A DNA stretch of 43,021 bases, from the NCBI GenBank assembly GCA_002633005.1, contig NMRA01000840.1, positions 78,196-121,216 of the forward strand, in the 5' to 3' direction. A program made the position numbers and the translations under genes. Shown here one piece after another: positions 1,296 to 39,500 of the stretch; position 1 is the stretch's first letter; the number at the start of each line of letters is the position of its first letter. Source of the DNA: Phoronis australis (Eukaryota > Animalia > Phoronida). The notes below the pieces were generated by a model. The model saw only the letters and a program-made list of their open reading frames with translations. It did not search any database and had not been told where the DNA came from.

Positions 1296-2477
1296 GTCAA
1301 AGTTCACGACCCCTACCAAGCTCAGATGCACATGTACACGTGTGGTGCTTTTATCAGGGTTAGCAAGTTTGTCTTCGTATCCCTGTTAATAGGTAGATAT
1401 GCGGAAAGAAAATGTTTTCTCCTTTTCTAAACCCCTAGCAAGACGTCCACGTCGATGACTGCCAAACTTTTCCTTTGCAATAATTTTCCCACGTTAGCTC
1501 CTGGAGTGGACTCAGTTAGGTTTGGATTGCCTTGATCAACATATGTGGTCATTGCCGACAGAGAAGACGACGAATCAGGCACAGCAATGTTCACATTGGA
1601 CTGTGTTTTGTTGATTAGTGTTAGCGTTGTTTTACTGGTTGACAACAACTATTCGTGTTTCGTTTATTTTTTTTCATTACGTTTCGTTTACATTTTTTAA
1701 TTAAAGGCCTTAAAATCACACATGTATATTGTGTTTGTTGGCCGTGCGTTATATGAATGTCCATTATTAAAACAGGTTCACAAGGCGAGTACATGCATGT
1801 GTACATGTACCTTCAATAGAATGAACGGTTCATTCGTTCACAAAGAAAAGCTGTGTGTTTTAACATAGCTATTTGAGTCATANGTCAAAGTTCACGACCC
1901 CTACCAAGCTCAGATGCACATGTACACGTGTGGTGCTTTTATCAGGGTTAGCAAGTTTGTCTTCGTATCCCTGTTAATAGGTAGATATGCGGAAAGAAAA
2001 TGTTTTCTCCTTTTCTAAACCCCGAGCAAGACGTCCACGTCGATGACTGCCAAACTTTTCCTTTGCAATAATTTGCCCACGTTAGCTCCTGGAGTGGACT
2101 CAGGTTTAGATTGCCTTGATCAACATATGTGGTCACTGCCGACAGAGAAGACGACGAATCAGGCACAGCAATGTTCACATTGGACTGTGTTTTGTTGATT
2201 AGTGTTAGCGTTGTTTTACTGGTTGACAACAACTATTCGTTTTTCGTTTATTTTTTTCATTACGTTTCGTTTACTTTTTTTAAGTAAAGGCCTTAAAATC
2301 ACACATGTATATTGTGTTTGTTGGCCGTGCTTTATATGAATGTCCATTAATAAAACAGGTTCACAAGGCAAGTTCATGTACATGTACATGTATATGTATG
2401 TGTACCTTCGATAGAATGAACGGTTCATTCGTTCACAAAGAAGAGCGGTGTGTTTTAACATAGCTATTTGAGTCATA
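1296..2477. repeat. Tandem duplication of about 590 bp around a single N (1883); probable haplotype/assembly artefact
   Basis: 1296-1882 and 1884-2477 are near-identical, with scattered SNPs and indels. Confidence 0.85.
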
Positions 2478-3633
2478 GGCGGATTGGGGGGGGGGGGAGC
2501 NGCAAGAAAAATGAAACAGCAACAGTGCGAAGCGTGAGGGAATATTGAGTTCAGTATCTAGGACCGGTCCGCTGCGACCTGGGGTCTGACCCTCCTCCCA
2601 CAACCGTGTTCCCGTTTGCTTTTTTTAGTCCAACGACAGGGGTTCTGGACAGAAGGACCACATCCCCCGGCCCCAGAACTTGAGCCGCCTGTGCAGATAC
2701 AATCGCGCTTTGCCCAATTCCCCGAGGCAACGTGTAGCCCCTCTTATGGTATCTTAGATCCGCCACTGTGAGTTATCACAATGCAAAGCCTACACGTTTT
2801 CACTAGATGCAGGATCACTTGTGATACAGCTCTTGTGTTTGCAGGGCATATTGTAAAAAGACATTTTCACCAAATTTTATAAAAAAAATGATCTGAAGGA
2901 TATTCTCGTAACTTTGTTGTTTTCTCATTTCCCTGATGACGTTGGTTATCATCCAAAATTTGAGAAAATTTGCAGTCTTTATTTTATCTCAATGCTTCTT
3001 AGAAAATATGATATAAAACGCAGTCGTGTCGAAGTATAAAGAATACAAACGAAAAAAAATTGCTTGAATACGGTTTCGCTCTATAGAAGTTATCAATCTG
3101 AAAAGCATTATAAAGTTTCCGCGGTTATTCCGTGTAGCCTAGTCAGTCAAGGTCAATTTTTAGGCGAATCGTTCACTTTCTGAAAAAATTGTGGACATTT
3201 TATGAATATTGTCCGAGTTTCAAACACTGTTGAGCAACATCGACGAAGGAAGGTCTATGCACGTCATAAGGCAAACCGTTATGTAATTATGGAACACTTA
3301 GAAGTTGTCAACTGCTTCTGGGAGTTTTTTAATGCCACTTCTTGAGTATATTTCAAGAATCACACAGGCTGACAACGAATAATCATTGTTTGTTGGAAAA
3401 GTATTCAGAGAACATATGAGGGCATATGAAACATTTAAAATCCTAGAAGACTTTTGATGTTTTCAGCCGCTCGTAATTCCCATAGTTTTAGTCTGTTTTC
3501 GGGGTGATTCTTTGGTATTAAAGCTGTAGATTTTTCGAAAGTGGTTGGTAATAACATAAATCTCTAAGTAATACTTTGCGATAAAGCACTAATTCTTATT
3601 GTTGGATATCAAGGCATTTTCTATACAGAATAA

Positions 3634-3971
3634 TTATGTTTTCATGCACTGCACGGCGCTGATGACTCCTGGATACTTTTCCAAAAGGCTTTGTTTCAAT
3701 GTGTTGCACGCGGTGGTCTCAATTGTGCTGTTAACCTTAGTAAAGACAGCAGTGACAAGAAACTGAACTGGGTGGCGGGGTCTCTGTGTGGTTGGAGGTT
3801 GCGTGGTTGGGGGTTGTGTTGTTGGAGGTTGCGTTGTCGGAGGTTGCGTTGTCGGAGGTTGCGTTGTCGGAGGCTGCGTTGTCGGAGGCTGCGTTGTCGG
3901 AGGTTGCGTTGTCGGAGGTTGCGTTGTTGGCGGCTGCGTTGTTGGAGGTTGCTGTGTTGTTATTTCGTTAC
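3634..3971 (-). CDS. Coding exon 17 (terminal): Pro/Thr mucin-like stalk and two-Cys tail
   Basis: tttttatag|GT NEITTQQ(PPTTQ)x11 RPRHP...SAVQCMKT*. The T+GT junction restores the last Sushi Cys. Confidence 0.82.
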
Positions 3972-6900
3972 CTATAAAAATCATCATACAATAAAATTAT
4001 AAAACTATTTAATATATCTTAAAAGTTAATAACTATGTCTCTTACTCCGCGGGAAATCAGCGATGGGACTTTCAAGTCTGATTGAATAAGTTTAAAATGC
4101 AATTAACGTTGCGAAACAAACCTAAGACATGAAAATGCATACAGAAATACTTAAACATAGGTGTACCGGGCTAGAAATATGAAGAGGACGTGCGTGAACA
4201 GTTGCCACACAGGGTAGAGGAGGTCGAGAGGCATCTGCAACAATGGTTTGGGATTACAGTCAATTATAATCTTTCAGATATTACTTGGATATTACAATAT
4301 ACCTGTGGTGTTTTCTGTAGGGAAATTGAGGTTTAAAAGAAACTTATATTTCACGCTAACCTTAGTCTTATTTTTAAAGAGTTGTGTTTAAGTGAAAAGG
4401 TGCTTTTGTCCAAAATTGCAGATTTCAAGTCAAAATTAGTATCAAAAAGAAACAATACCAGAACAACTATAGCCCGAAGAAATCTTATGATTCCAATTTT
4501 ATGACACTAAAAGGCCTCAATTATATTTCCGCTTTTTAGCCAACTGAACAAACGAAAATGCAGCATTGCCCAAAATTATTGCATGGGATTAGTACGTACA
4601 TTGTGGAGTAGCAGTGGATTCCCAGGTGCCATTGATAAGACATCTCACGTTTTTTATTCCCTGAAGTTCAAAGCCGTCATAGCACGAGTAAGTCGCTTGA
4701 CTGCCAAAACTTGTTGAAGCATTGAAGTACGACACGATTCCGTTAACCGGCGCTGACAATGGTTCGCAGTCGAAGACTACAACAATAATTTACATGTCGC
4801 TGGGTTTACATTAAACAAAATTCCATTGAACAATTATAAATGAGAAGACAACATGACACTCTTGGGAATGAAAGTTTAGGTCGATCAAACTTCCATAGAA
4901 CCTTGACCCTCCCTCCATCCCTCCATTCACCCTCCCTCACTCATTCCCGCTCTCCGTCGGTCTCGTTCTATCTCTCTTACTATTGAAATTTCCTCAGACT
5001 TGTTCAGAAAGGCAGAACAAATCACAAACGACATGAGGCTGGTTCTCTCTTTACAAAAATCTACCAGTCAAATAAAATGCACGTTTTCATTCCAGAGTTG
5101 TAGTTAAAGGGACAGATGGCGTTTCGGCCATAAAATTAAAAACATTATTATTTGGCCTGTCAAACTTCCTGACATTGATAGCTTTGACTAGAGTTTCAAT
5201 ACAAAAATCATGCTTCGTACATTTCCCACTACGAAGAAGTATCCGCCAACAAAACCAGTGGCTGCAGCTAATAACGCGTGAGAATTTCGATCCTAGCCTG
5301 CGTCAAAAAGCGAAAATTAATTAGCTAACTTAAACTAAACAAATAGTGGGGCGGCAGAGAGTGGTAGTTATTCCCCCTGCTTGTGAATTATTGAAGCCCT
5401 ATATGCACGTTTTAACTGACGTTCCGTCCAACAAATCCGAGTCGGCATCAATCGGAAGACACTTTCGTGCTCTAGTTAGTCTAGAGAGCGCCAAAATGAA
5501 AAATCTCCTATAACTATATACAGTTAGTGGTTCACTATTTCAAAAAAACAAGCGAATTTAATTCCACTGTTAGTCCCCTGTTGTTTTATTAGTTTAAGTT
5601 TTCTAATTTATTGAACCTTTCTGACACCTGCTGGGATCGAAATTCTTCTGCTTCATTAGCCACAGCCACTGCGTCTTTTCCAGGACTCAGTAACTTGTTC
5701 CCAGCTTTGTTGCAGATTTTTCTTTGCAAAGGGAAATGTATGGAATGTGATTTCCTTGTTCATCCATTGGTATTTCAGAAGTTTGACATTTTCTAAATGG
5801 CATTAGTACACCCCACCGCACTTCAGTGGAAATTTACTGGCAATACTACAGCAGGAAAGGTGTTAAAACGCTGAAACAATCTGTAAGCATTACACGGGAT
5901 CTGTAGGTGGCGCTGAACGCCTGTCCACCAACGACCTGATCGCCGTGTTGCGGGATAGTAAATGTCTATAAGGCGCGGCCATTTCGAAATAATTCAGCTA
6001 TTTCAGCACCAGCATGTCTACGCCTTAAGCCAGGACAGGTTTCCCGAAGTGCATCTGTTTCAGTTTTCAGTTGACGTACTCAACACTTACACTGTCTACA
6101 TGTGAAACAGCAACGTTTCCGGTACGAAGCCAGTCTGCAAACGTTGGATGGTGTATAGCCAGAGCAGTCGACTTTGTCCCCGTACTCACAATCTGGAAGT
6201 AGATAAATCAAGATTTATACAATGTTATGGTTATAACGCGAGAAGCATGGTGTCGCTAGTGTAACCATATTTCGACAGGAAGTTTCAAGACACGACATTT
6301 CGTTTTCGCCGTGACTCTCTCTCTCTCTCTCTCCGATTGGCTGCAGGTCAGATCTTGAGTCAGATGTCTTTGAAACAATTGCCAAGGTCAATGATGTCAC
6401 GTTGCCTGCAAGTTGGAATGTTGTATTTAGCAATCATGCCTTACCTGGACATACGTGACCTTAACATCAGCAAAAGCTGGCGCCGATGTGCCTGTGACCA
6501 GACATGTTACAGTATTGTGCATTGCCCCCTACTGTTCATTAATCTGAATCCGTGGCGGATCGATTTATGTCTTAAGTGAGATAACGATGTTTTCTAACGA
6601 AACTTAACGACGTGCGATCAAGTTTGAGAAAAAAAATGTTCTTTTCCGTAAACATCCAACAATTTCAAAGAGACTTACTGTAAAAGTTCTATAATCTTTA
6701 ATGAATTGATTGATTGCAAGGTTGCGTCTTCCCCAAATTATACTTATCCAAACACAAATTACCTTAACGGTAACTGAATTTTTGAAAATGATTCTCCGAA
6801 ATGTTACTGCTTTATTTCCGAATCAGCTAGAAACATGTACATGTATACATGTAAACGTACATGTATACATGTACACGTACATGTATACATGTACACGTAC

Positions 6901-9900
6901 ATGCATATATGTACACGTACATGTATACATGTACACGTACATGCATACATGTACACGTACATGCAACTACGTAAGCAAGTTGCTGGATAAATCTTGAAAA
7001 AATCGCGACAGATGTTGCTCCATCGACTTTGTCGAACTCACGACACTTTACCACGCAATTCCGTTAAAATAAACAATTAGCGACTGGATATACTAATTCC
7101 ACATGAAATTCCGACAAAATTTCGAAAATAACGCTATTTTATTGCGACAAATTTGCGACTAAGTTGCGAACTAATTACGGAAAGAGGTTCATCCAACTGT
7201 GGCAGGGTCTGGCGGAATTCTATCGAAGTCCGTCTTGTTTATTTTAAAAACAGCAGCTGATTCCTTCCAAGACCAGGCTCAGACTCGTATGTAGGAATTG
7301 TTAGCTGTATTTGTACCACTGTCTGTAGTTACAGGTCACACAGAGCCTGAAATAGTAACTCGTTTACTGAAAAACTTGTTGACATGAATTTGTATACTGC
7401 AGTACCCAAGGGCCCTCATTATGCGCCAGAGGCCTTCCTGAACTTAAACACCCTATGACAGCCCAAGATACGAGACCAAATCACGTGTTTTGTGTAAGCC
7501 AATCCTGATGTACCCGAGATTAATTGCGTATTCATAGTATGCAGGGACAAAGCCACATACCAAAATTGTTAAGTCTAATACACTCTCACTTAAAGAATAC
7601 TACAATGTTTTTAATGACACTAAATTGGCGTTAAATTTTATTTGTGTATTTTTACCCACATGCAGCACGGTTAACCATGCTTGTGACGTTAGCCGAGGAA
7701 GGTGGAATCTTAAACCTCCGTTTCGTAAAACCTCTCCGTTCACCGACTGACCGTACCTGGTAGATTCTCGTGTGATACGCACGTTCCGCAGCACTTGGCT
7801 CTCACTTTTTTTGTATAACACTCCCACCTCCCGATATCTGAGCATTTTTTGTCATAATCCTTAGAAATTCGACCAGGCCTGTCGCCAGAGGGACACGTGT
7901 CTGAAACAAAAAGACGTCGATTAAGAATAACCACACGAGACAAGATTATGAAAACCATTACGCACAACTGCACGCTTGACAATGACGTTTTACGACCTGG
8001 ACACACACACGTTTTGGAAGCAATCGCAATAAACAGTAAGAATGATCTACAAACACTGAAGGCAACCAGAGTCGAGAGTATTCGGTCTAGGTCACAATCG
8101 CTTCAACAGAGGAATCTCTGCCCGAGTGCATGAAACAGTCACAAATAGGGAATCGACCAAGTTCCTTAAATCTTTTGCTGACTTGATTCATCCTTTACCC
8201 ACAGACGTAGTTTTTTCTATTTTTTTTATTTCTCGGTTAGCTCCTCTGAATAATGACATTTCGTATTAACATCATTAAAAAACCCTTAATTCAGCCAAGG
8301 TAATTAGGGATTTGGTCCTTAAATCAGGAGTGTTGCATGAAAAGACCCCTATTATTTTCTACAATATTGAGAGTTCAACATAAACTACGCTCTCAATTTT
8401 ATCAAAGCCAAAAAATGACGTAGTAATGAGACTCAAACAGCAAAAGAAAGGACACTTAATGTTCTCACAAGCCCACCCAGTAGATTTGAGGAACTCAGTT
8501 GAGTCCGTGAGAGAGTAGATGAGGGCAAAGCCCTCAGACAGCTTCGCGAGATCGTATTATCTCGCCTTCTGTCCTTGCTGTGGTTGGTGTGGACGCGGAT
8601 CGAGGGCAGGACCTGGTAGGCCGGTGGTGGTAGAGGTGGTGTGCTTGATCTTCTTCTGGAGACGAGACGCTGGCTGGATGGCAACAGCGTTATTGACATC
8701 GTAGAGGTGGAGCTGGCTTGATGGCAACAGCTTAGAGTTGGTTCACATGAAGCCACTCAGTTGAGTCCCAAGCTATTTGGAACTATTTAATGCAACTGAA
8801 CTCAAGCCCCTGACCAGTTGCCCGTGCAGATTGCACTACGAGAGCATCATTCCATAGACCAAGAAAAAAGATTACGACAGGCAGGGTACATGTACATTGT
8901 CACACGCGTGTGCATGTAGTACTGGAGGTCGCAAACACTACAGTAGCTTTGCTGAGAAAAAGAGTCGTGAGAGAGCAACAGGGATATCATCACAACGCCA
9001 CTCAAAAGCCAACACTTCGCTACTCAGGACAAGTTAAGGCTAGAGAGGAAACGCTATCAGGAGCCTTGCCGTTCCCATCCAGTGATAGGGCACGAGTAGT
9101 TAGGAGGAAAAATGACCAGTGTCTCTGACGGCTTTGTTAATTAATGTGTTACGCAATTGCTGCGTAGTCTCGAACAATACATCCAGAATCTTGCTCGATG
9201 ATGCCATTATTAACATCACAGAATTATAACGAAAACACCGCTCGATTAAAGCTCAGTCGAGTGGACAACCTGAAATGAACAGTGATAATTCTCGCCGGCA
9301 GTACCATGAAATATCAAGATCGCAAGTTCTTATTCTAGAAAGCATTGAAGATGACATTTCAGTTCCTATAATTCTTTGCATGCATGCAGTAATATAATCC
9401 TGAGATTTTCTACCGTGGTAAAGACGCATTGACAGCACCTTCTTCAGTGTACTTACCGCTAGCCTTTGGAGCCCTCTCGTCATACACACAATAGCCGCGA
9501 AGACACCACTAAAACATACCAAATTTTAAATATAATTACTCTGTGAAAGCGGCCAAGACATATTACAATGTATGCACTTTCAAATGTTCTTTAAATCCCA
9601 ACAGATGTCACCAGATCATACATCGACGAGCATAGTCACAGAAATCTACAGTCGTAACACCTCGTTCAAAAATCCTAGATCAGACATTGTAATCGCCTGA
9701 ACTGCCATGCTTGGAAGCCCGAAGAGAACGTTAAAAAGAATACGCGACTACATTAAAGTTAACTTCGGCTTGAATTTCATTGAGCGATCCACTACTCCGT
9801 CTGTGGAAAAGATGGAGGATGATCTTTGCAGTCACGCATATATGAGGACGGGGCGATGGAGTTCCTTTAGTTCCACTTCAAAATACAGAACAGTTTTAAC

Positions 9901-12900
9901 GTATCAACTCAATATTTAAACTAGAGGTTGCATTTTTAAAAGGGGCTTTTGGTCATACTGGCATGTATTGAAAGTTCATCAAACCGGAAGTGTGGCGAGG
10001 TGAGTCCAGTAGCACAACGGCTNCGAAGAGAACGTTAAAAAGAATACGCGACTACATTAAAGTTAACTTCGGCTTGAATTTCATTGAGCGATCCACTACT
10101 CCGTCTGTGGAAAAGATGGAGGATGATCTTTGCAGTCACGTATATATGAGGACGGGGCGATGGAGTTCCTTTAGTTCCACTTCAAAATACAGAACAGTTT
10201 TAACGTATCAACTCAATATTTAAACTAGAGGTTGCATTTTTAGAAGGGGCTTTTGGTCATACTGGCATGTATTGAAAGTTCATCAAACCGGAAGTGTGGC
10301 GAGGTGAGTCCAGTAGCACAACGGCTAACTCTGAAACGTAGTTGTATTTGTATTAGTGCCTGCTTCAGGCATTATTCCTCAAGTCAAAAGCACATTGTTA
10401 CGTAACGGAACTGGGACTCGTGCATCTGCGGGAGTCTCCGCCGTTGAGGGCAGTTCGTTACCATACGTATAACTGAAAAGCTAGGGAACGCAGGTTCGTG
10501 TGGAAACCAAAGTTTTTGGAAGTGTTTGAGTGTATAACCCTTTTGGTTAGAGAATCTACTACTTTATCGATTTCATTTTTACTGAAATTGGTTGAAGGGA
10601 AATCACAAGACATGTAGTATGGAAAAATTGCCACATCAACAAAAGAGACCTTCCAAAAGGCACATTCCTTTTAATAATCAACTTTTGATAATGGCGAGCA
10701 AGCAGTTTTGTCAGTCGTCACTGATAACCTACGCTATAGATAAGCACTAAAAATGCTCCTCTGCTTGTAAAATCATATACTCCTTTAAAATGGAGGAGGG
10801 TTTTGGACCATGAAGTTTCTGAAAGAGTGTGCTGCTGACTTATGAACAGTGACAAGGGCACACCATGTCGTCCTGGTGGTAACAACTGAAATGGCCGACA
10901 TAAAGCCGAATGGCCAGTGTTTCGTTACACTCTGAAATGAAAGTTAATACAGCGGACGTCAGACGATGATACAAATGTTTACCTCTAAAAACAATTACCG
11001 TAAATTTTCGATGTTGCGTGTGGATCGGCTTACTGAAAGCATGGGGAAATCCCATGACAAGGGATCGGATAAGTGAGACAAAAATTAACAGGTCATCTTG
11101 GTATAATGCAGAAATGATAATGGTCGGTAAAGAAACAAGACTGAGCAGAGCTTGAGCAAGTACCTTCTTGTTTCCACATGTAGTACCGTCAGCCGCCACC
11201 AGTTGATGTTCCTGCAAACAATACGTGCGCGCAGGACTATAGCAGTACATTCTGTAGCACATCATGGCATCCGTTGAAGATCCCTAAAATAGCAATTGTA
11301 ACCTGAATTCCAAATATTCCAAATTTGTAGCAAATTAAAACCACACCATAACCTAACGCACGGTCTGATGGATAGGGTACTCAGATGAAACATAGCTCTC
11401 ATAAACTAAGCATCCTGAACCATGTAGGCAATCACTTCAGCGACGCAATTTTACACACTTAAGACGAGCATACAAAGTATGTAATTACCGTTATAATAAT
11501 TACTGACATAATAATTACTGGCATAATAATTACTGTTTTAATGATTACTCAATACCTAAAGTTATAGCCAAGGCTAGGGCTATGGATGTTTTCTGTGCGT
11601 TCTCTTTGGAAATGGTGACTTATAAGACCAGGCAAGTTATGGCTGGGCAGAAATCGATACAGGACATTAAAATAAATGATTTATTGATTGACGGAAGGAT
11701 GATTGATACTGTTGTACCCTTTGCCACGTTGTATACTTCGTCTATTCTACGCTAAAGTAATTCAAACGATCCTACCCCACAGAAGTATGACTGTTCGCCG
11801 TAGACTTGTTTGCACTGTTGGTGAATAGTATACTGCTGTCCAGGCATCACGCTAAGATAATTCTGAAATTCTGTTTCGTTGAAGACGGTGCTTGTTTTCA
11901 GCATACAGTTTATGCGGTCTCTGCAATAAAAGACGGAAACGAAGATAATGCCGTACGCGCGGGGCGTTTCGTCGAGCAGATTTTATTATGACGTCGATTC
12001 AGCTCCATAATAAACTGAATAAAAGTGAAGAGATAAACAAACGTGTGTGTCCAGGAATCTTTAGGCCAACTTGAGGCGAGGCGGTCGGACGGTAATTGTT
12101 TCTGCTTCTCTGACGTCACAATGATTTCCCCGCTTCTTTTCAAGTAATTCACAATGGAACTCAAATTTGTAAATTTCTTGTAGTTCATTGCAGTGGACCA
12201 CTTAAGTGACACTTGTACTTGGCCAAACAATCAAAACTTTAATTTGTTTTTGTCACTTGGAAAAGATATCTGCAAATGGACTCCACCTAGTTACTAATCA
12301 CAGTTTGGGCCTTAAAGCAACATTGGTGTGGATAAAAATCACTAAATGTATCTCATATTGACAGAGTCTACAAATATGGGAGTATTTTAACTTAACACAG
12401 TTAATTTTCAAGCCGAACTTCAGCGAAATTTTGATTAAAATTTAGATGAATTGGGCTAACCAGGTATGAGTCATAAAACCTTAGCAAGATAAGAAAACAC
12501 GAATTCAATCAAGCAAATGTAGGCCCGTCAAGTGATAGGTGAAGCTAACTTTTCGTGCCATATTGCATCACTGCGAAATCCCAGGCAAAACAACAAAAGA
12601 CCGATGACAGTTGTAATGAATAGGGATGTGATTAGGAGACCATTGCCTGCGGGTGTTATTCGCAGCTCTTAAAAGTCGAATCTCGCAGTGACGTAGGCAA
12701 AAGCAAGCCAATACGCCTAACATTTCGTTACGTTTGACAATTTATGGCGCTAGTGTGATCAGAGCAATGCTCATAACATCCTGTAGGAAGCAAATTTACC
12801 GGCGATGCCGCTTCAGACAGGTTTCACGATTTACCTGTTGAGTGACGCCACGTATGACGCCATGGCACTAATGGAGCACGAAGAGAAACGATATGTGTTA

Positions 12901-15900
12901 TTGCGAGTCGCCAAGTTGTACGGGTCGGGCAAATATCGCCCTAAGATGAACTGTTTACTGGGATCGCAGCCATTGGTTCCAAGGTTATCCACTCTTGCAC
13001 CCAAGCTGCAAAAAGATCAACGGCACAGTGCAGCACACCCGCTTGTCTTAACATCGAGAGCTACACAACAAGACGATTTCTAGAAGGAAATGTTACAGCC
13101 AAAACAATGTAAAACAGAGACGAAAACCATTGCTACTCATTCACCATGCCTTTAATAATTTGACTAATCCGAAACACATTTTGACAAGGCGTCAATCATC
13201 AAGCAATATTTGCAAGAGTTGTGATACGCTCTAACGCCACTCAATCTCAACTGTGTTCAGATATAATGAACAAAACGTTGCGTTTAACATAACAAGGCAA
13301 AGTGTTTCCTTATCAGCGATACAATTTTCTGCACATGATTCATGGGTGGGTTATCCTACCCGAAAGCAAGTCCTTGGGCAAGGAATGCGGTGCTACCAAA
13401 AGCTCCGGGTTCGTAGCTCATAGCCTGTCCTCTGTAGATTCCATTATACGATTTACACACGCTATCCGGTGAATACGTACCCAGTGAGCCAAGTAAGAGC
13501 TCATACCTGAAAAAGTCAAACGGGCGTAAGAGGGTTTGCTTTAATGTGGGGACATAAACAACTGTGACTACAGCATCTCCATCAAACCTGGGCCACACGA
13601 GTTCGTTCGGCCTACACTATCTCTATCACCGCCTCCGTCCGACACTCACTTTTCTTTCGCCTGCGCAGCACCGTGTCATTCGTCGATCATAGCAGTTTAA
13701 TCCAAGGCCGTAGGCCGGAGGGGGGTTCGACCGCTCCTCCGCTGAACTAGCCCATGCCTATCCGTTAAAGATAGAATACATATGGAAAACAACAAAACTG
13801 TTGCAGCTACTGGTACTACTAACTACAATGATGACTGGGTTAATAATAATTATTAATTTGCTTCTTTTCAAAGCGCTTCACGTAATCATCGTTCCGGACC
13901 CGGCCAACTTCGCCCGAGTGGTATTTTCCGGCGTAGTTGACAGGATCATGCTGACGATTAGATGAGTTTTATGTTACTCATCGGCATTGAACAAACATGG
14001 TGGTTACACTGTAGGGTAACAAGGGAGCCTAGAATCAAATATCTATACTTAGATAAGCTATTTAGCAGCGAAAGAGCTCCCAAAAAGTAGTGCGGGTGAA
14101 TGCTTTACAATCGAAGGACTTTGGATTTGAAAGTGTTCGTCAAGTACATCTTTTTCATCTAGTGTTCACTTCGGTTGTGGATTGGTGGATTGACATGTAT
14201 GTGCATACACGTGTTTGCGTTTCCGTCCTTTTAAATTCAGTAGAAGCCGACAGTAAGTTAACTATAAGCAGCCCTCGGTCGTTCCTTAAAAATTAAAATT
14301 TAACTGTAACCGTGTTTTCTTGAACAGAGAAAACACCGAAGAGCATGTTCACTCCGACAGTTATTTTATCTCAAAACTGCAGCCCAAGCAGTCGCTTTAG
14401 CGTTATATCCAGTTTCTAATTCATAACCTTGCACACATTGTCTAACAATACCAAGCTCAAATGATTAGGAGACACCTACATGTATGTTCAATGCTTGTTT
14501 GTCAGACAGTGAAGCCAGGATTCGTCTCCCAAACAGGAGTCTCAACCTCAAAATACCGAGCCACAGCGCTGATTACTCTGCTAAGGAGTCGTAACAGAAG
14601 TGAATAAAGTATAGTATTTGTGTAACCATTTGAAGGGTGTGTAAAAGTTGAATGGTCCTTCATATATTACAAATGAGCTCAGTTTCAATCACTGTCAATT
14701 GAGATTCTTTTTCTAACTAACGACCCTCACGGGTCAGGACTGCGGCGACCAACAGTTTAAAATTTAAGAAGACTGAATGGGGCTCTATGACTTCGTGAAG
14801 ACTGTCAGAGACAGGGTACTAGCGAGCTAACGACATTAAATTTCAACCCAGCCGTGTGCATGGTTCCGGTGGGTGAGGTTCAGGCACAGAGGCCCTAAGA
14901 TTTTCAGTCGCGCTGTGAAATGATGCAACCCTGACATGGATTTGAGGGTGGTATCTTAATTGATAGTTCATCAATATTCCTACTTCATATTTTTTAAAAT
15001 GCAATAACGTCCTCATTTTTCCGTGTTTGTAAGATATGCGGGAATTTTTGCATGCGCATTAAATCCAAACAAAGTATTTTAGTACCTGGGCGTTGTTTTC
15101 GGTATAGGTAAGTCATTCAGTGTTTCTAATAACCGTAGTATTTATTTTGCACGTAAACGAGAAAAAAATACACGAATTGAAAAAGTTAGATCTTTTAGTA
15201 GTAGTGAACCTTTGAAGCAGTGAACCTTGGGAATGGCGAACCGAATGATGAGCATTAGGCTGTTTCCATTTCCAACGTGACGTAGGCAACTTTAGTAACA
15301 CTCAATTATATACATGTAACTACATGTTGATAAAAAATTGTCTACTTATTCTCCGTCTAAATATTTCTGTCCTAGTACATGTAGGTGTAATCACTCCTGC
15401 TAAAGGAGTGATTTGAACATTTGGCAGGAAGTAGCGCAAAACGTTTAGGACCACATTACATTCGAATTGAGTCCGGGTCTTTGCGAGCAACCGTCATGGA
15501 ATCCTAATATCTGGTATTACTAATACCTTCTCATCTTAAAAAGCACAGAGCTGAGGGTCATCGTTGTGTAAACAAATTTCATTTGCCCTGATTAAGCTGC
15601 GCCAGCTGAGGGCATTAATGAAAACTCTACAGTGTCGACGTTCGCAAAATATCAAAGGTCCACCGTTCTAGAAATTCGAACCACCCCCTGCGCAATGCTG
15701 GCTACGCCTTGAATACCTACTGTACACCTTCGCGGATATGGGGGCTCTCGTCACCATAAGTATAGTCACACTTGAGACTTCCCTAACTTGTCGAATTGCT
15801 ATTTGATACATGTATCTCAAAATTTAAGCTGCGTAGGGCAACTTGAGATTGTTAACTAATTGTATAGATTGGCACTAACTGGGAGTTTTGTCACCTAGAT

Positions 15901-27900: not shown

Positions 27901-30900
27901 CAGCGAATTTTTAAAGGTGAAGGCAACCTTTTTTGTGTCTTTTTAAGCAAAAATAAGGTTTGTTGTTTATCCCAGACATATTTTCCACTTAGTTTCAGCT
28001 TTTCGTAGTTTAATTGATCACGCGTTCTCCAGTCCGGAAATGACGTTTTGGGCGGCAAGAATTTCGTGCCATTTTTTCATATAAGCTGACTGTGAGAGCT
28101 GCCGAGCCAGTCATTGTTCTATATCGGTTGTGATAAGTTCGGTCGTCATTTGCTTTTGTTTACGAGTCAGTCAACATGCCACAGTGTTGCTGCGTACCGG
28201 GATGTTCTCATCATCACCATAATAATTCTCATATGGTTTTAATTCTATGTTGAAATCCGCTGGGTAAAGGCAAGGCATTACTGTTCAAGAAAGCACTCAT
28301 GCGACCTTTCAAATAAAGAAGTGAATATCGTCTGGAGCGTGACTATTTATCAGTTCGGCTTGTACGATGGTGGAACGAGGCTACATCAGCTTTTAACTCT
28401 ACTAACATAGTGTAGAACTGCAACAGCTTGAGTAAGAGATTCAAATCTGCGTCAGACCTGACGTGCTTTCAGTAACACTAGGACCCATCTAAAAACTAGT
28501 AAATGTCATGTGCTCTCTTTAAAACTACACGGCAATGCCTCACGTAATCTCGCGAAGTCTTGCTTTTCAGAGAGGTCCTAGCGTTACTGAACGGGAGGCT
28601 GATCTCACGTACACAACGTTGTCGTACGTAATGCTGTGTGTTAAGGTGAAAGCCGCCTAACAGAATCGCTAACACGGTTTATGACACAGTCACATGCTAT
28701 TTCGGAATGGAAGACATGAATGAGCATCTTCTGTCAGCCAGATGGTATCAGATTATAATTTTTGGTCCGGATGATACGTAGGCCTACAACGCGAGGCAAA
28801 AGCGTGTGTGGAGTGCGCCTGCAAACACGCGTGCATATATTGAATGCGAATATATCCATGTGTAATTATGGAGTAACATTTTGTCCCTCACCGTAGTCAT
28901 GCACCCGATCTTCTCGTTTCTTCATTTTCACCATGATGTGATAGTCCACCACATCCACGTCATCCACAATTTCTTTCAAACTTCGCTTGTGACGAATCTG
29001 CTCATCGGAGGCTGGCTGAACTAGGTATTCATCACCTCCATAAAACATCGTTCCCTCCTGTAACGATATTTCACCAGTCTTACGGCTGTAAAGATTTCAG
29101 TATCTCCGTCACAACTGTCCAAACCAGATATTCTTATACATGTACATGTATGAAAAAGACGCGGTGATCATTTCTCTTGTGTAAGATTTTTTACAAGTTC
29201 ATCATATTATCAATAAGTATCTGGCTACTTACCACACTTCTAATCACTTGTCCTTTGTTATCAACGGATTTCCTGATGGACATGGCTGCTCCATTTTGAA
29301 CATCTTGATAAAACTTGACGTCCTGCTATAAAAACAAGTGCAATACGTCTTTAAGAATCATCATAGAAAGCTTCAGTCAGTCTGATGATATAGCACATTT
29401 TAGATTAATCGGTAACATTTAGAGTTGGATTCGGGTTAAACTGAAATTTATATAAATTACATACATGTATGCATGCTACTTTTTTATGATTCAAAAGAAT
29501 CCCTAAACCTTATCCACAATACAAAAAATGATTACCCCAAAATCCGGAATGTCCATTCTCTTTCTTTTGTCAACTCCATCTGCCGACGTAAATACTGGCA
29601 CATGCGAACCGACGTTTACAGTGCGAGTTAACTTAAGATTTACGTCGTGCGTGGTCGACAAAACGTTGGTGAAGATTTGGCCTTCCGTCAGGGGACCATC
29701 GTCTTTAGCAAATCCTATGAGCTCATAGCCTGAAAACAGAATCGAAGTTGCCATAATCATTCGTTGAATCAAGTACTTTCATGAAGTGGGTTGACTTGGC
29801 CTCTCTTCCGACATAAGAATTGGTTTCACTCGAATCGGAATTATGACTTGATCATACTCGGATGTCCTGTGTATAAAGGTAGAAATATGCTATCGTCACG
29901 ACATAGGTCTTTGCAAGACCATAAACTGTCACAACTACATAAACTGATATACAGTTTTTATTGTAAAACTGTGGCCTGCTATTGCGTCGGAAGCATGTCC
30001 ATATAGGTTCAGCAAATGACCAACAAAGTCGGCAGTGTGGAGGGTACGGGAGGGGTATTCCTTCCAGTAAAGAGGTCTGGGAGGATTCCCCGTAAGATTT
30101 TGAGAATTTTAGTCTCAATTTGGTGACCTTTAGAGGTTTCGAAATACCTTTTTGACATTCTTTATTAAACACGTGACCTAAATTGACACTTATCATTTCT
30201 TTGATGTTGCAACGATCAAAATTGCGATTTAACAAATTTTTTTAATGTTTAGAGTGAATGTTTGACTAATTGGTTTACAACATCTAAACAAAAGCAAGTT
30301 GATCAACAAAAATCAACTTCCTTTATTCCCGATTACAAGAAGCCACTTGAGATGTGAGTGAGTATTTGTTCAAACCGGTCATTATTTAAAGTCGGTGAGT
30401 TTATATCCACACACATTATGTAAGGTGTGTCTAAGCTCTTAATTTAACTGATACTAAAATTTGCACCATTGAATAGTGTGTCTATATTTTTCAGAATTCA
30501 AGAGTGGGAATTCTTCCGTGTCTCACATTCGATTTGCATGAGTCAGGGCAATTCACTTAGAGGTTTATTAAGAGAATAGCAAATTTGTGTTTTCTGATTT
30601 CACTGTTCTCAAACGATCATACTCCTTTGACCGTAACTGTTTACGAAGCTAACTAGGCTGCGAACGTTGATGGGTTTCTGAAAAAAATTCCATGGAAATA
30701 TTTTGACGAATAATAAAACAAATCAGGACATGCTCTTTTAATCGAAAAAGTATTTTTCCTGAAAGAATAATGTTATACATGTAGGAGCAGCTATTGCAAT
30801 ATGAGCCCATAGACACTTGGTTGACGTAACGTTAGATCCACGCCAGTCGAACAATACTTGGAAGTCTACAACGCTAATGGAACAATTGTTTTGATTGTAA

Positions 30901-36900: not shown

Positions 36901-39500
36901 CTACCTTTCTCCAATCTCCTCGGCTTTGACACTTCCTGCTGTGTCAGAATCCCAGTGTCGGAGGTCGTGAGCTTTTAAGAAACGCCGACTTATTCTTTTT
37001 AAAATGATGCTTTTACTCAAAACCAATTGAAATTTTAAATAAAATAGAAATAAATTGATCCTATAAAATAATTTTATAGCAACTAGTCTAGTTTCCTGAA
37101 CATCTTATCGTGTAAGCTTCCACCGTGAAAATATCGTCTACAAAAGTATTAATTTTCGAAATACGTCGGCGTTCGTCGGCGTCTTGTCCAGCGGTGAACA
37201 TGTAACTGAAGCAACTGGTAAAGTCCCCGCCTAATAATCTCATCAGCAGCAGAGATTTCTAACGGACACCAGTCACCAGTTTGCAATGAATCGCCGGGTA
37301 TTGGGCTGTATGGGTCTCCGATACACGCCAGGTTTCCAAGTATGCGGGATTGTATATTAACCTCCCTCTTTTTATCAATCATAATTTGCGGGCATTGCTC
37401 ATTGGCCTGGTGAAGGCAGCGGACTTCGACCGACGGGGGGAGGGCGTGTTCGATTCCTGCTTGAATGCAAGACTATAACAGAAGCTACATGTATACAGCG
37501 AATACAGTATATTTTGTAACAGACGACTGCTGAACTACATTTGCCAGTTTTACGGGAATTTAATCAGTAAACGTCACTTTCGCGCACATGTAAATGTTAT
37601 CTTCTTTAAGTTATGTATCAACATCAATGGCTTTATTAGTCTTGTTTTAACATGTCCATGTGGCTGTGCACCCCGTCATGACCTGTTGTAATAGAAAAAT
37701 CTGCCTATTTTTGAAGGTTAAAATATGTTTATTCAAAATGTCCACAAAACGTTTTAAATGAATTTAAGCCTTGAGCTTCATTTGCACTCCTTTTTTCGCG
37801 TAATGCATGAAACGTAATTTAACCGTGTCCTATTAGGAACAAGAGGTGACTTGCTAGAAGTCACGTTCTCCAGATTACCCTAAGTTAGCGTCTCGTTCAC
37901 AAATCTTGAAGCCACAGTAAAGCGTTGTTCGTGAGATATGGAGTGAATGACTAACTGTAAGCATCATTTTTCCACCCTAAGGTGGCTTTATCGTTACCAC
38001 AACGTCACATGACAGTTCTTTTTCATAGTTTTGCGGTTTTCAGTGTGAAGATTTTGCTGTTATGTAACACAGTAGTGTATGAATTCCAAAAAAAAACATT
38101 TAAAAATCAAATTGTAAAGCCAAACTCATTATCTCCGAACCATACGTATTTACGAACGTCTAGGTTTCCACACAGCTAGGTTGCCCGCACATGTACACGA
38201 CGCAAACACTTCTACATAATTTGTTTGACATTCAAACTCAACAATGCGTGACTTTTAAAACAAAATATTCGATTTTCGAATAACTTAAAAGGAACATTTT
38301 GGTGCAAATTGGCTATAAAATGGGTATTACTAAAGGTGATAACAGTGCATTGGTCTGTTCAATTCTAACTTGGTAAAGGTGTCACAATCAGCGTGGATAA
38401 CGAACATACAGAATTTGTCAGGTTTCATAGCAGATATGCTTTTGGCGTTATGCATTCATATGCGAGATATCATGGAGAGCCATGAAAATAAGTCACTATT
38501 GACAATGGCATTTGCATACTCGCTTTCAACAATAAACGGCTAATTTGTTTGAGGCACCACAACTACACGACCCGACAAAATGTCAGAAACATTGGCATCC
38601 AAACGCCGCAAGGCTGATGTACATGTACATGAACATGTATGTAACAAAACTCAATGGATGTTCACAAAGTCGTCAAGTGATCCCAGTTCTAAACTGTAAA
38701 CAACAAAACAAGACCATTTTTCAACTGTAAGGAGTGAAAACGGTTTTTAACAGAAAGCACGGCTTTAATGCCGCGTGACGTAGAACAGTTGGATACCATT
38801 TGGAGTTCGGGAAATATAGTTCTGAACCATCTCAGTGAATTAAGGTTACGGTGTATGTTGATGCGCATTATCCAAATATCTACGCGACTACATGTACAAC
38901 TGTACAGATTTAAACTCAGCAACGTATTCTTTCTTCGAAACTGGAAAACCTTTAGACTTTGACTTTGCCTTTCTGAGCAATACGACTCATCAACTAGGTC
39001 TCAAGACAGGTCTTTAAGAAAAAATTAACGAAAAGATTTGTATGACAAAACAGGCAAGTGTCAATAAAAGAATGAAATTTCCCTTTTATTTATTAAGACT
39101 ATACATGTACGTACTGAGCTCTCAAAAATCCGTTATAATTTTCTAAAACATTGTTTTGTTTTTACTTTATGCAAAATCTGCAGTTTTTACTTGAAATTCA
39201 TAAAGAATCCTTAGTAGCACTTCATGTCGAAGGGGCTAAATTTAAAATCCTATCATCGTTTTGTAGAGCAGTGCCTAAAGCCTGACATTTGAAAGTTTCA
39301 TTTCGATCCGACCATATCCGAAGTTCGCCAAATTTACAAAATTTTCAAGTGCCCTACACCTGTACATAACCTTAAGGAAACATTTAAGCAAAAAGTTTAC
39401 CTTCACCACGTGGCTTTAGGACGTGCGATATGTACGTGGCGCATGATGGCGCTAGTGTCAACACGAGCAACAATAGTGGATAAGGAACAGCTCGGTACAT
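3634..39500 (-). CDS. Spliced gene (17 coding exons, 801 aa): secreted MIG-17-like ADAM/ADAMTS (reprolysin M12B) family protein, predicted catalytically inactive, with PLAC-like x2, Sushi and mucin-like C-terminal regions
   Basis: join on minus: 39401-39500, 29536-29729, 29233-29322, 28892-29057, 21258-21384, 19410-19503, 18783-18860, 18113-18273, 13360-13506, 12835-13005, 11776-11920, 11164-11283, 9457-9508, 7757-7900, 6091-6192, 4600-4776, 3634-3971. All introns are GT-AG and phases match; total 2406 nt with no internal stop. Family motifs: FYQD, RQKR|A, IELFMAVD, YDYGVLNTG, FSSCS, PGQQY...QC...YG, ADGTTCG..KWC..GYC, CCxTC. Confidence 0.88.
3784..3948 (-). repeat. Coding 15-bp minisatellite (PPTTQ)x11
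   Basis: Plus-strand units such as ttgcgttgtcggagg, with variation only at synonymous positions. Confidence 0.95.
4600..4776 (-). CDS. Coding exon 16: Sushi/CCP domain
   Basis: ttgttgtag|TC FDCEPLSAPVNGIVSYFNASTSFGSQATYSCYDGFELQGIKNVRCLINGTWESTATPQ T|gtacgt; classic CCP consensus, 177 nt, phase 1-1. Confidence 0.9.
6091..6192 (-). CDS. Coding exon 15: PLAC-like six-cysteine module 2
   Basis: ctacttccag|AT CEYGDKVDCSGYTPSNVCRLASYRKRCCFTCRQ T|gtaagt. Confidence 0.88.
6833..6965. repeat. Alternating purine-pyrimidine minisatellite, unit about 20 bp (ATGTATACATGTACACGTAC)
   Basis: About 6 copies read directly from the sequence. Confidence 0.92.
7064..7247. mobile_element. Possible small MITE/foldback
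   Basis: Perfect 13-bp inverted ends TTAAAATAAACAA/TTGTTTATTTTAA, with degenerate extension to AATTCC/GGAATT. Confidence 0.4.
7757..7900 (-). CDS. Coding exon 14: PLAC-like six-cysteine module 1
   Basis: tttgtttcag|AC TCPSGDRPGRISKDYDKKCSDIGRWECYTKKVRAKCCGTCVSHENLP G|gtacgg. Confidence 0.88.
9457..9508 (-). CDS. Coding exon 13: end of Cys-rich module
   Basis: gtatgttttag|WCLRGYCVYDERAPKAS G|gtaagt; completes the DGTxCG..KWCxxGxCV motif. Confidence 0.9.
9720..10326. repeat. 303-bp tandem duplication around a single N (10023); probable assembly artefact
   Basis: 9720-10022 and 10024-10326 differ at only about 2 positions. Confidence 0.88.
11164..11283 (-). CDS. Coding exon 12: disintegrin-like/Cys-rich module
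   Basis: attttag|GSSTDAMMCYRMYCYSPARTYCLQEHQLVAADGTTCGNKK|gtactt. Confidence 0.92.
11482..11549. repeat. 15-bp AT-rich tandem repeat (ATAATAATTACTGAC-like)
   Basis: 4-5 degenerate copies. Confidence 0.75.
11776..11920 (-). CDS. Coding exon 11: end of M12B and start of ADAMTS-type disintegrin-like module
   Basis: ttttattgcag|A DRINCMLKTSTVFNETEFQNYLSVMPGQQYTIHQQCKQVYGEQSYFCG|gtagga. Confidence 0.92.
12835..13005 (-). CDS. Coding exon 10: second half of degenerate zinc motif, Met-turn region, FSSCS
   Basis: ctttttgcag|C LGARVDNLGTNGCDPSKQFILGRYLPDPYNLATRNNTYRFSSCSISAMASYVASLN AG|gtaaat. Confidence 0.9.
13360..13506 (-). CDS. Coding exon 9: M12B domain, first half of degenerate zinc motif
   Basis: ctttttcag|G YELLLGSLGTYSPDSVCKSY...SYEPGAFGSTAFLAQGLAF GG|gtagga. 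Confidence 0.88.
13895..15090 (-). repeat. Inverted, interrupted copy of the 32855-33452 repeat
   Basis: The reverse complement of 13895-14115 aligns to 33230-33452 (GCACTACT..TTTTGGGAGCTCT, CTTGTTACCCTA, GAAGTTGGC). The reverse complement of 14930-15090 aligns to the tandem unit. Confidence 0.65.
16607..16740 (+). mobile_element. Short MITE (about 130 bp), copy 1
   Basis: TIR TCAGTAACGCTAGGACCT ... AGGTCCTAGCGTCTACTGA; homologous inverted copy at 28469-28590. Confidence 0.75.
16741..16925 (+). mobile_element. Terminus of a CAGTGGCGGATCTA-type MITE
   Basis: CAGTGGCGGATCTAGG followed by a G-run. The same terminus occurs inverted at about 2753-2768 (CTTAGATCCGCCACTG). Full extent not resolved. 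Confidence 0.5.
16995..17059 (-). other. tRNA-derived (SINE-head-like) sequence
   Basis: A-box-like TGGTGTAGTGG and B-box-like GTTCGAGTC at tRNA spacing; no clean cloverleaf. Confidence 0.5.
18113..18273 (-). CDS. Coding exon 8: M12B domain
   Basis: ctcctacag|TALASPFTEN...LAAFKKW...IPKYDYGVLNT GG|gtgagt; resembles the reprolysin 'L..F..W...DHA.L.TG' segment. Confidence 0.9.
18783..18860 (-). CDS. Coding exon 7: M12B domain
   Basis: ttaatttcag|LDIRFQSIKHARYSFRVQLSFIYVAQ|gtagga; 78 nt, phase 0-0. Confidence 0.85.
19410..19503 (-). CDS. Coding exon 6: M12B domain
   Basis: gttttag|G FLADASGSTSEEKQKNALSDIKYYMCHLSNG|gtaagc. Confidence 0.88.
19800..20640 (-). mobile_element. Degenerate LINE fragment (RT C-terminal region)
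   Basis: FLGITVDINFS..HINLISNKL...KLKSYLPLRALKLICNSLVLPHLNYGI, with frameshifts and a gap; boundaries approximate. Confidence 0.7.
21258..21384 (-). CDS. Coding exon 5: furin site RQKR and start of M12B domain
   Basis: gttgttacag|..SSHSRQKRATPQLNTIELFMAVDFALYS AG|gtatct; IELxxxVD is the typical reprolysin first strand. Confidence 0.9.
21584..26313 (-). mobile_element. Sola3-like DNA transposon (about 4.7 kb, decayed) in intron 4
   Basis: TTAA at both flanks (21580-21583, 26314-26317). Imperfect TIRs: GAGCAATTCCATATAAAAACCAGATG versus reverse complement GAATGATTCCATATAAAAACCATATG. Contains a transposase pseudogene. TTAA TSD plus GAG terminus is characteristic of Sola3 (superfamily assigned from recall). 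Confidence 0.75.
23402..25553 (-). pseudogene. Transposase pseudogene (Sola3-like), with frameshifts, stops, an intron and an internal deletion
   Basis: SELQLILARAG..HRHEFGLGF..CC..H, then MDFAMKFIPISFREAQSDWFGKK/MSWH, intron 24577-25057, SDNANCYH, DFSESQKGKDICDR, stop at 24202-24204, C2H2-like CTHYGCSKSF..HLDVGAH, and ALKSTRKAVRFSE...QIAGFFSR. Confidence 0.85.
28176..28285 (+). pseudogene. THAP-domain N-terminal fossil (likely transposon-derived)
   Basis: MPQCCCVPGCS.., then a stop/frameshift and RWVKA; matches the THAP start MPxxCCVPGC...W. Confidence 0.45.
28469..28590 (-). mobile_element. Short MITE, copy 2 (inverted relative to copy 1)
   Basis: TCAGTAACACTAGGACC ... CTCACGTAATCTCGCGAAGTCTTGCTTTTCAGAGAGGTCCTAGCGTTACTGA is a near reverse complement of 16607-16660. 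Confidence 0.75.
28892..29057 (-). CDS. Coding exon 4: prodomain with internal RHKR site
   Basis: cgttacag|EGTMFYGGDEYLVQPASDEQIRHKRSLKE...YHIMVKMKKREDRVHDY G|gtgagg. Confidence 0.87.
29233..29322 (-). CDS. Coding exon 3: prodomain (FYQD motif)
   Basis: ttttatagcag|DVKFYQDVQNGAAMSIRKSVDNKGQVIRSV|gtaagt; 90 nt, phase 0-0; not in the ORF track. Confidence 0.85.
29536..29729 (-). CDS. Coding exon 2: prodomain
   Basis: ctgttttcag|GC TAT GAG; YELIGFAKDD...VNLKLTRTVNVGSHVPVFTSADGVDKRKRMDIPDFG|gtaatc. Confidence 0.85.
30546..32851. mobile_element. Putative non-autonomous DNA transposon with internal GTAGTGTACGTAC motif array
   Basis: Termini GGGCAATTCAC ... GTGATTTGCCC (10/11 inverted match); flanks GTCA/GTAA (possible 4-bp TSD); about 8 motif copies at 31410-32667; no ORF. 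Confidence 0.45.
32855..33452 (+). repeat. Dispersed repeat with an internal tandem unit of about 165 bp
   Basis: AAGCACT..GATTTC..GCAT..GAAATTGCCCGCATGTCTTACGA occurs twice about 165 bp apart. Homologous segments lie at 13895-14115 and 14930-15090 (inverted) and about 41900-42005 (direct). Confidence 0.7.
33459..34638. mobile_element. MITE/non-autonomous DNA transposon with imperfect TIRs
   Basis: Left AATAGGCCTTTTGCGAGTTT...ACTGTGACGTCACGGGAAGTGGGGCAAAA. Right (reverse complement) AATAGCTCACTTTGCGAGTTT...ACTGTGACGTCACCGGAAAGGGGGCAAAA. Confidence 0.65.
35504..36767 (+). mobile_element. 5'-truncated non-LTR retrotransposon (CR1/L2-like RT C-terminus and 3' UTR) with 14-bp TSD
   Basis: HRHRGILLDEKLSFTPHV / LFKSFILPHIDYWDIIY / LEKLQYQAALLITGA / WNSLP / CRCG..H..FKCP, with frameshifts. 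Ends in AATAAA and an A-run. TSD AATGGTACATGTAC at 35490-35503 and 36768-36781. Confidence 0.88.
37395..37462 (+). other. Degenerate tRNA-derived (SINE-head-like) sequence
   Basis: TGGCCTGGTGAAGG ... GTTCGATTCC box pair. Confidence 0.35.
39401..39500 (-). CDS. Coding exon 1: start codon and signal peptide
   Basis: ttattctag|AAGG ATG: MYRAVPYPLLLLVLTLAPSCATYISHVLKPRGE, with a hydrophobic core then small residues. Donor G|gtaaac is phase 1 and matches exon 2. An acceptor 4 nt before the ATG implies an upstream non-coding exon. Confidence 0.75.

What the first reader, a model, noticed from the sequence alone, without database searches (positions are those of the whole stretch)
3634..39500. Unusual architecture: pro - dead M12B - disintegrin-like - PLAC-like x2 - Sushi - mucin stalk, with no TSP1, spacer or TM segment
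Seen: the domain order comes from the hand-spliced 801-aa protein. Established: canonical ADAMTS proteins have TSP1 and spacer domains, ADAMs have a TM segment, and nematode MIG-17 lacks TSP1 and ends in PLAC. I do not recognise a described family member that adds a CCP module and a Pro/Thr stalk. Inference: a lineage-specific secreted matrix, mucus, shell, gamete-coat or immune-recognition protein.
Basis: partly seen in the sequence, partly recalled or inferred. Interest (0 to 1): 0.7.

Follow-up and report, generated by a model that had tools for sequence, protein, structure and literature searches.

The report
Dead secreted metalloprotease with mucin tail
This is a real, spliced animal gene for a metalloprotease relative that has lost all its zinc-binding residues and ends in a Sushi domain and a mucin-like repeat; it is likely a secreted, non-cutting mucus or matrix protein, and a similar one is already reported from limpet adhesive mucus.

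Summary
The architecture is real. A 17-exon minus-strand gene (39500-3634, all introns GT-AG) encodes 801 aa. RNA reads join exons 10-17 directly, including PLAC-like to Sushi and Sushi to mucin, so the 'separate transcript' objection fails. Against HExxH-intact relatives, the three zinc histidines, the catalytic glutamate and the Met-turn are all replaced, while nearly all structural cysteines are kept: a pseudoprotease, not a pseudogene. There is no TSP1, spacer or transmembrane segment.

It is not a lone design. It belongs to a spiralian TSP1-less, MIG-17-like M12B family (best relatives in Lingula, 33% identity) whose tails vary freely. Mucin tails occur in 3 of 8 long relatives, a chiton member has lost its zinc histidines, and a dead 'ADAM mig-17'-like protein with Ser-Pro-Thr-Thr repeats is published from limpet adhesive mucus. 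Only the single Sushi exon (0 of 8 relatives) and a 49-aa cysteine-pair tail are unmatched; the Sushi exon is a phase 1-1 module, easily shuffled.

Most likely role (inferred): a secreted, glycosylated, non-catalytic binding protein of mucus or matrix. A new variant of a known kind; modest interest.

The parts
39401..39500 (-). Exon 1: start codon, predicted signal peptide (aa 1-33)
   Evidence: link to exon 2 not tested by reads
29536..29729 (-). Exon 2: prodomain (aa 34-98)
   Evidence: prodomain 25-32% identical to Lingula P0005/P0011
29233..29322 (-). Exon 3: prodomain (aa 99-128)
28892..29057 (-). Exon 4: prodomain, furin-type site RHKR at aa 150-153
21258..21384 (-). Exon 5: furin-type site RQKR at aa 202-205 and start of the M12B-like domain
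   Evidence: stranded read depth in X1 and X2
19410..19503 (-). Exon 6: M12B-like domain
18783..18860 (-). Exon 7: M12B-like domain
   Evidence: low read depth
18113..18273 (-). Exon 8: M12B-like domain
   Evidence: joined to exon 9 by loose read ends
13360..13506 (-). Exon 9: first part of the lost zinc site (His to Gln381, Glu to Gly382, His to Phe385)
   Evidence: joined to exon 10 by loose read ends
12835..13005 (-). Exon 10: rest of the lost zinc site (His to Val391) and Met-turn position (Leu407)
   Evidence: junction reads
11776..11920 (-). Exon 11: end of M12B-like domain, start of ADAMTS 'disintegrin-like' domain (Pfam ADAMTS_CR_2)
11164..11283 (-). Exon 12: ADAMTS_CR_2
9457..9508 (-). 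Exon 13: end of ADAMTS_CR_2 (17 aa, too short for a TSP1 repeat; not scanned in Pfam)
7757..7900 (-). Exon 14: PLAC-like six-cysteine repeat 1, phase 1-1
   Evidence: no Pfam hit
6091..6192 (-). Exon 15: PLAC-like six-cysteine repeat 2, phase 1-1
   Evidence: (PLAC, below cut-off)
4600..4776 (-). Exon 16: one Sushi/CCP domain, phase 1-1
3784..3971 (-). Exon 17, first part: about 11 copies of a five-residue Thr-Thr-Gln-Pro-Pro mucin-like repeat (aa 694-749)
3634..3783 (-). Exon 17, second part: 49-aa tail with Cys778 and Cys798, then the stop codon; no family assigned
2978..3633 (-). 3' untranslated region, read-covered to at least about 3000; candidate poly(A) signals near 3333 and 2983
   Evidence: true 3' end not mapped

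Best explanation
This expressed gene encodes a MIG-17-like M12B protein that has lost every zinc ligand, so it is predicted to be a secreted pseudoprotease that likely works by binding rather than cutting, as a glycosylated component of mucus or extracellular matrix. Shown: one spliced chain from exon 8 to exon 17, loss of the three histidines, the glutamate and the Met-turn, kept cysteines, and no TM segment. Inferred: the signal peptide routes it to secretion; a furin-type convertase removes the prodomain at aa 202-205; the folded dead M12B and disintegrin-like domains, two PLAC-like repeats and the Sushi domain form a protein-binding head; the Thr/Pro repeat is O-glycosylated into a stiff, hydrated linker that holds a small disulfide-closed tail. 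It likely arose from a spiralian family of TSP1-less M12B proteases by active-site decay plus shuffling of phase 1-1 tail exons.
For: Junction reads chain exons 10-17 and loose ends add exons 8-9. At the five catalytic columns the gene has Gln, Gly, Phe, Val, Leu where 5 of 5 aligned relatives have His, Glu, His, His, Met. It keeps 23 of 25 and 24 of 25 core cysteines of the two Lingula relatives, and 52-54% identity in the disintegrin-like domain, which argues for a folded, selected protein. Full-length BLASTP to Lingula P0011 and P0005: 33-34% over about 600 aa, E 4e-98 and 1e-93. Exons 14, 15 and 16 all start and end in phase 1. Relatives swap tails at the same place: mucin-SEA-EGF-TM, CAP repeats, or only cysteine repeats. 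Precedent: dead mig-17-like P-vulgata_8 with SPTT repeats was found by proteomics only in the interfacial adhesive mucus of limpets (PMC7333891, passages). 'ADAM family mig-17' transcripts or proteins are listed for mussel mantle (PMC4581086, passage) and triton salivary secretion (PMC5519703, passage).
Against: No function was tested. Tissues of the RNA runs are coded, so the site of expression is unknown. Depth is only about 7x from 1.6-1.8 billion letters, roughly 4 reads per kb per million by my arithmetic, low for a bulk mucus protein in those samples. I could not align P-vulgata_8 to this protein (its alignment is a figure), so orthology is untested. The limpet authors report no specific in situ pattern for P-vulgata_8 (section 3.4) and call its function unclear. 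Introns 1-7, including the link to the signal-peptide exon, lack read support here. The tree of nine cores is unresolved, with a long branch for this gene.
Confidence: 0.55

Rival explanations
1. It is a decoy or regulator for active paralogues: the dead domain binds their substrates or inhibitors in basement membrane or secretions and so tunes matrix remodelling.
For: Active relatives exist: 7 of 8 long relatives keep HExxH, and 26 short exon-sized hits suggest a large family. The disintegrin-like domain, needed for MIG-17 function (PMC4856095, passage), is the best conserved part.
Against: No active paralogue lies in the window and no genome was held to look for one. Catalytically dead MIG-17 mutants behave as loss of function in worms (PMC7164957 and PMC4856095, passages). 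The cleft residues are heavily changed, not just the glutamate.
Confidence: 0.2
2. It is a secreted immune-recognition or defence protein in which the Sushi domain and cysteine repeats bind microbes or complement-like factors.
For: Sushi domains are common in complement regulators (own knowledge). 'ADAM family mig-17' genes change expression in schistosome-exposed or resistant snails (PMC13619432, table passages). Expression is sample-restricted: present in X1 and X2, absent in X3.
Against: A single Sushi domain is unspecific; no lectin or other recognition domain was found; the snail entries are automatic names and their active sites were not checked.
Confidence: 0.13
3. It is the soluble remnant of a membrane protease-mucin: the 49-aa tail is the first half of a SEA domain, and the gene encodes what would be the shed outer part of a Lingula-type M12B-mucin-SEA-EGF-TM protein.
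For: In Lingula P0011 the mucin run is followed by a Pfam SEA domain (E 8.4e-7), EGF repeats and a hydrophobic segment; P0005 has an aligned region. Both carry a cysteine pair there, and the tail here sits in the same position, has a cysteine pair and ends about where their Gly-Ser-Ile-Ile motif starts (by eye).
Against: No statistic supports it: 980 and 615 of 2000 shuffles reach the pairwise scores, 134 of 1000 shuffles reach the profile score, hhalign probability 0.1%, no Pfam SEA hit, and the single-sequence model is one helix. No EGF or TM exon was found in the 3.6 kb downstream.
Confidence: 0.1
4. It is a decaying transcribed pseudogene or a mis-joined gene model.
For: Long branch; the assembly has duplicated stretches around single Ns.
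Against: An intact 801-aa frame over 17 exons, kept cysteines and accurate splicing; 3 of the 5 read-supported coding differences I checked are synonymous and none adds a stop.
Confidence: 0.02

Closest known systems
Limpet P-vulgata_8 (Patella vulgata; PMC7333891)
   Same: Secreted, reprolysin domain without HEXXH, best hit 'ADAM family mig-17', C-terminal Ser/Pro/Thr repeats; found in adhesive mucus.
   Different: Reported as 638 aa and incomplete at the C-terminus, with reprolysin as the only domain listed (no Sushi); repeat unit differs; sequence not available to me for alignment.
Lingula anatina XP_023932197.1 ('mucin-5AC', P0005) and XP_013409946.1 (P0011)
   Same: Collinear prodomain, furin site, M12B, ADAMTS_CR_2, PLAC-like repeats and mucin run; no TSP1; 33-34% identity over about 600 aa.
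   Different: Both keep HExxH and the Met-turn, have much longer tails with EGF, SEA (Pfam hit in P0011), CAP (P0011) and a hydrophobic TM-like segment, and have no Sushi.
Chiton Liolophura sinensis XP_064599216.1 (P0024)
   Same: M12B with the zinc histidines lost, ADAMTS_CR_2, three PLAC-like repeats and a five-residue Thr-rich mucin run.
   Different: Keeps the glutamate, has a different C-terminal domain and a hydrophobic end, no Sushi; its N-terminus looks mis-modelled. Whether the loss is shared or independent is unresolved.
C. elegans MIG-17
   Same: Signal, prodomain, metalloprotease, disintegrin-like and PLAC order (PMC4856095, figure legend).
   Different: MIG-17 is an active protease and needs its catalytic glutamate; it has one PLAC and no Sushi or mucin run in the listed domains. 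Orthology was not tested.
Vertebrate ADAMTS-1, -4, -5, -13 (M12B plus disintegrin-like structures)
   Same: Best PDB matches of the active relative P0018 (E 2e-13 to 1e-9).
   Different: They carry the zinc motif, TSP1 and spacer (PMC4349717, passages); this protein has none of these.

Membership tests
ADAMTS proteases (canonical) | Zinc motif HEXXHXXGXX(H/D) with catalytic Glu | tested here: not met
   motif definition from PMC4349717
ADAMTS proteases (canonical) | ADAMTS disintegrin-like domain after the M12B domain | tested here: met
   Pfam ADAMTS_CR_2 on exons 11-12
ADAMTS proteases (canonical) | Central TSP1 repeat and spacer | tested here: not met
   No Pfam hit on 16 of 17 exons scanned; reads join exons 12-13-14 with no extra exon
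ADAMTS proteases (canonical) | Signal peptide, prodomain with furin site, no TM | tested here: met
   Hydropathy and motif scan, alignment; no dedicated signal-peptide predictor was available
ADAM (membrane) family | TM segment and cytoplasmic tail (feature recalled) | tested here: not met
   reads run through the stop into the UTR
ADAM (membrane) family | True disintegrin domain (feature recalled) | tested here: not met
   No Pfam Disintegrin hit; the domain is ADAMTS_CR_2
MIG-17 (nematode) | Order signal-pro-MP-disintegrin-like-PLAC | tested here: met
   PLAC match is below the Pfam cut-off
MIG-17 (nematode) | Catalytic activity | tested here: not met
   All ligands replaced; judged from sequence, no assay
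MIG-17 (nematode) | Orthology by phylogeny | not tested
   No nematode sequence was retrieved
Spiralian TSP1-less M12B family (automatic names 'ADAM family mig-17', 'ADAMTS-like') | Collinear pro-M12B-ADAMTS_CR_2-(six-cysteine repeat)n core without TSP1 | tested here: met
   I found no formal definition of this family, so this is my working one
SEA-domain mucins | SEA domain after the Pro/Thr run | tested here: not met
   power is low (49 aa, two templates)
Mucin-like glycoprotein | O-glycosylated Pro/Thr tandem repeat | not testable with these tools
   The repeat is present; glycosylation is inferred

The most novel reading that the evidence does not exclude
Spiralian animals use an unrecognised family of mucus-associated protease and pseudoprotease pairs: membrane-tethered M12B-mucin-SEA-EGF-TM enzymes, and soluble dead copies such as this one, which has gained a Sushi exon and stops where SEA self-cleavage would cut, so that it is made as a ready-shed decoy or cross-linker for the active enzymes.
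Probability: 0.1. Interest if true: 0.55.

Novelty: new variant of a known kind. Interest (0 to 1): 0.27.

Why it matters
It adds a read-supported example to a small but recurring theme: dead MIG-17-like proteins with mucin tails in a limpet, a chiton and this animal. If they prove to be structural parts of mucus or glue, that would explain an orphan component of invertebrate adhesives and show proteases being reused as building material. As a single gene it is ordinary domain shuffling within a variable family.

Tried and rejected
No whole genome was held, so paralogues and neighbouring genes could not be counted. No RNA holder was listed by the index; same-species-label raw reads were laid instead, and X4 contigs were uninformative. 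Word-index searches with exons 11 and 12 found 1 and 2 candidates and no hits. The profile search with five relatives returned only 6 proteins among 7990 scored candidates, probably crowded by mucin words, so the census of architectures is small. Of 33 representative hits, two long ones (P0009, P0019) are fibronectin-repeat false positives and were dropped, and 26 are fragments under 300 aa. Alignment A1 with exon pieces was mis-aligned and not used. PDB searches with single exons gave nothing relevant. Half-SEA reading of the tail: not supported; the one-helix model was not sent to a fold search. A downstream TM or EGF exon: none found in 1-3633; beyond the window edge is untested. A duplicated exon or second copy in the window: none. 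tRNA and Rfam scans were empty. NCBIfam gave no hits. Five look-ups of earlier findings returned nothing relevant. Nine literature searches listed no paper describing an M12B protein with a Sushi domain; I read passages of only some hits, and most subscription papers are not held.

Full report
Gene model. The window is animal DNA of about 39% G+C; no whole genome is held. Reading the minus strand gave 17 exons from the start codon at 39500 to the stop at 3634. Exons 16 and 17 are the Sushi and mucin exons, as stated.

RNA support. The index listed no RNA holder, but offered three raw-read runs and one contig set with the same species label. At 96% likeness, runs X1 and X2 gave seven joints in 3000-15500, all matching introns 10-16, all on the strand expected for a minus-strand RNA: 2+3, 5+11, 7+8, 5+4, 4+3, 13+6 and 3+8 reads. 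No alternative joint was listed. Loose ends at 13006 (5 reads) and 13507 (3 reads; 17 of 30 letters checked) match the ends of exons 9 and 8; 10 of 17 loose ends were shown. Depth per exonic base is about 5-9 in X1 and 3-15 in X2 for the eight other bins checked, lower on exon 7 (1.9 and 0.4), and 0-0.2 in X3. Coverage continues past the stop to about 3000. So Sushi and mucin exons belong to the same spliced chain as the dead catalytic domain.

Domains. Pfam finds ADAMTS_CR_2 on exons 11-12, Sushi on exon 16 and a sub-threshold PLAC match on exon 15; no TSP1, spacer, disintegrin, EGF or SEA. The ADAMTS 'disintegrin-like' domain is this cysteine-rich module rather than a true disintegrin (own knowledge). 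Exon 14 has no Pfam hit, but a profile of 18 repeats from relatives finds both repeats. Exon 10 has reprolysin look-alikes in the Atlas (scores 0.80-0.89, leads only). There are two furin-type sites (150-153, 202-205), five N-glycosylation sequons, about 11 five-residue Thr/Pro repeats, and no hydrophobic stretch apart from the N-terminus. After the repeat comes a 49-aa tail with cysteines 778 and 798, which the finding does not mention.

Relatives. A search of 1.84 billion representatives with exon 11 gave 33 hits: 26 fragments, 2 fibronectin false positives and 5 long relatives. A profile search added 3. Named ones come from Lingula (three), Octopus, a chiton and the flatworm Macrostomum. 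The best align over about 600 aa at 33-34% identity and are collinear with exons 1-15, which supports the unread 5' exons. The source is therefore likely a spiralian, perhaps near brachiopods, but the tree is unresolved: 1 of 6 inner branches is well supported and this gene has a long branch. Among the 8 long relatives, Pfam found TSP1 in 0 and Sushi in 0; two of them are truncated or partial. Three have Thr-rich mucin runs, seven keep HExxH, and the chiton protein has lost its histidines. Seventeen of the 26 fragments end the exon-11 match with the same residues that read-through of a splice donor would give, which suggests many genomic copies with a shared intron (inference).

Dead site. At the columns where five aligned relatives have His, Glu, His, His and the Met-turn, this protein has Gln381, Gly382, Phe385, Val391 and Leu407. 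The motif is defined in PMC4349717 (passages). It keeps 23 of 25 and 24 of 25 core cysteines of the two Lingula proteins and 52-54% identity in the disintegrin-like domain. It also has two cysteines (252, 309) that the aligned relatives lack. Of five coding differences seen in reads that I checked, three are synonymous and none is a stop. This is a maintained pseudoprotease.

How the architecture arose. Exons 14, 15 and 16 each begin and end in phase 1, the class of extracellular module that is readily shuffled (own knowledge). Relatives differ at exactly this place: two to four cysteine repeats followed by nothing, by mucin, or by mucin with CAP, SEA, EGF and a hydrophobic segment. One extra Sushi exon is an expected outcome in such a family. 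I tested whether the tail is half of the SEA domain seen in Lingula; position and a cysteine pair fit by eye, but no score beat shuffles and the single-sequence model is one helix. I found no TM or EGF exon downstream in the window.

Literature. PMC7333891 (passages, section 3.4, supplement text search; its alignment figure was not visible and may bear on orthology) describes limpet P-vulgata_8: secreted, 'ADAM family mig-17'-like, no HEXXH, nine Ser-Pro-Thr-Thr repeats, incomplete C-terminus, found only in interfacial adhesive mucus, function unclear. MIG-17's domain order and need for catalysis come from PMC4856095 and PMC7164957 (passages). Mig-17-named entries appear in mussel mantle, triton salivary secretion and snail infection tables (PMC4581086, PMC5519703, PMC13619432, PMC9463173; passages). 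PMC4595640 and PMC12549020 (passages) added nothing on this family. Nine searches listed no paper on M12B with Sushi; six papers hold both words, of which I read passages of two.

Verdict. The best reading (0.55) is a secreted non-catalytic binding glycoprotein of mucus or matrix; rivals are a decoy for active paralogues (0.2), immune recognition (0.13) and a ready-shed remnant of a membrane protease-mucin (0.1). It works like P-vulgata_8 by inference; it is not a canonical ADAMTS or ADAM. New variant of a known kind, interest 0.27.

Noticed in passing
window 1296-2477 and 9720-10326: Two head-to-tail duplications (about 590 bp at 94%, 303 bp at 99%), each split by a single N: likely assembly artefacts from uncollapsed alleles.
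   Followed up: partly
window about 23700-25600, minus strand (intron 4): Broken open frames that look like a degraded DNA-transposase-like element with a weak C2H2 finger match (E 0.05). The label is recalled; Pfam and NCBIfam gave no family.
   Followed up: partly
window 35369-36541 (+) and about 20050-20500 (-): Frames resembling the C-terminal part of non-LTR retrotransposon reverse transcriptases (recalled resemblance; no Pfam or NCBIfam hit).
   Followed up: partly
window about 16590-17660: High-copy repeat cluster with read depth of 90-250 on both strands in all three raw runs; a related copy lies at 28475-28614. No tRNA or Rfam match.
   Followed up: partly
window about 8500-8740: Intronic repeat read on both strands with many variant letters.
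   Followed up: no
P0005 (XP_023932197.1) and P0011 (XP_013409946.1), Lingula: HExxH-intact M12B proteases fused to long mucin runs, SEA or SEA-like, EGF and a TM-like segment, P0011 with two CAP domains; annotated only as 'mucin-5AC' or uncharacterized. These membrane protease-mucins may be more unusual than the gene in this window.
   Followed up: partly
window 19410-19503 and 18113-18273 (aa 252 and 309): Two cysteines in the dead M12B domain that aligned relatives lack; possibly a new disulfide.
   Followed up: no
window about 39505: A splice-acceptor-like AG lies just upstream of the start codon, so an untranslated first exon may exist further up.
   Followed up: no
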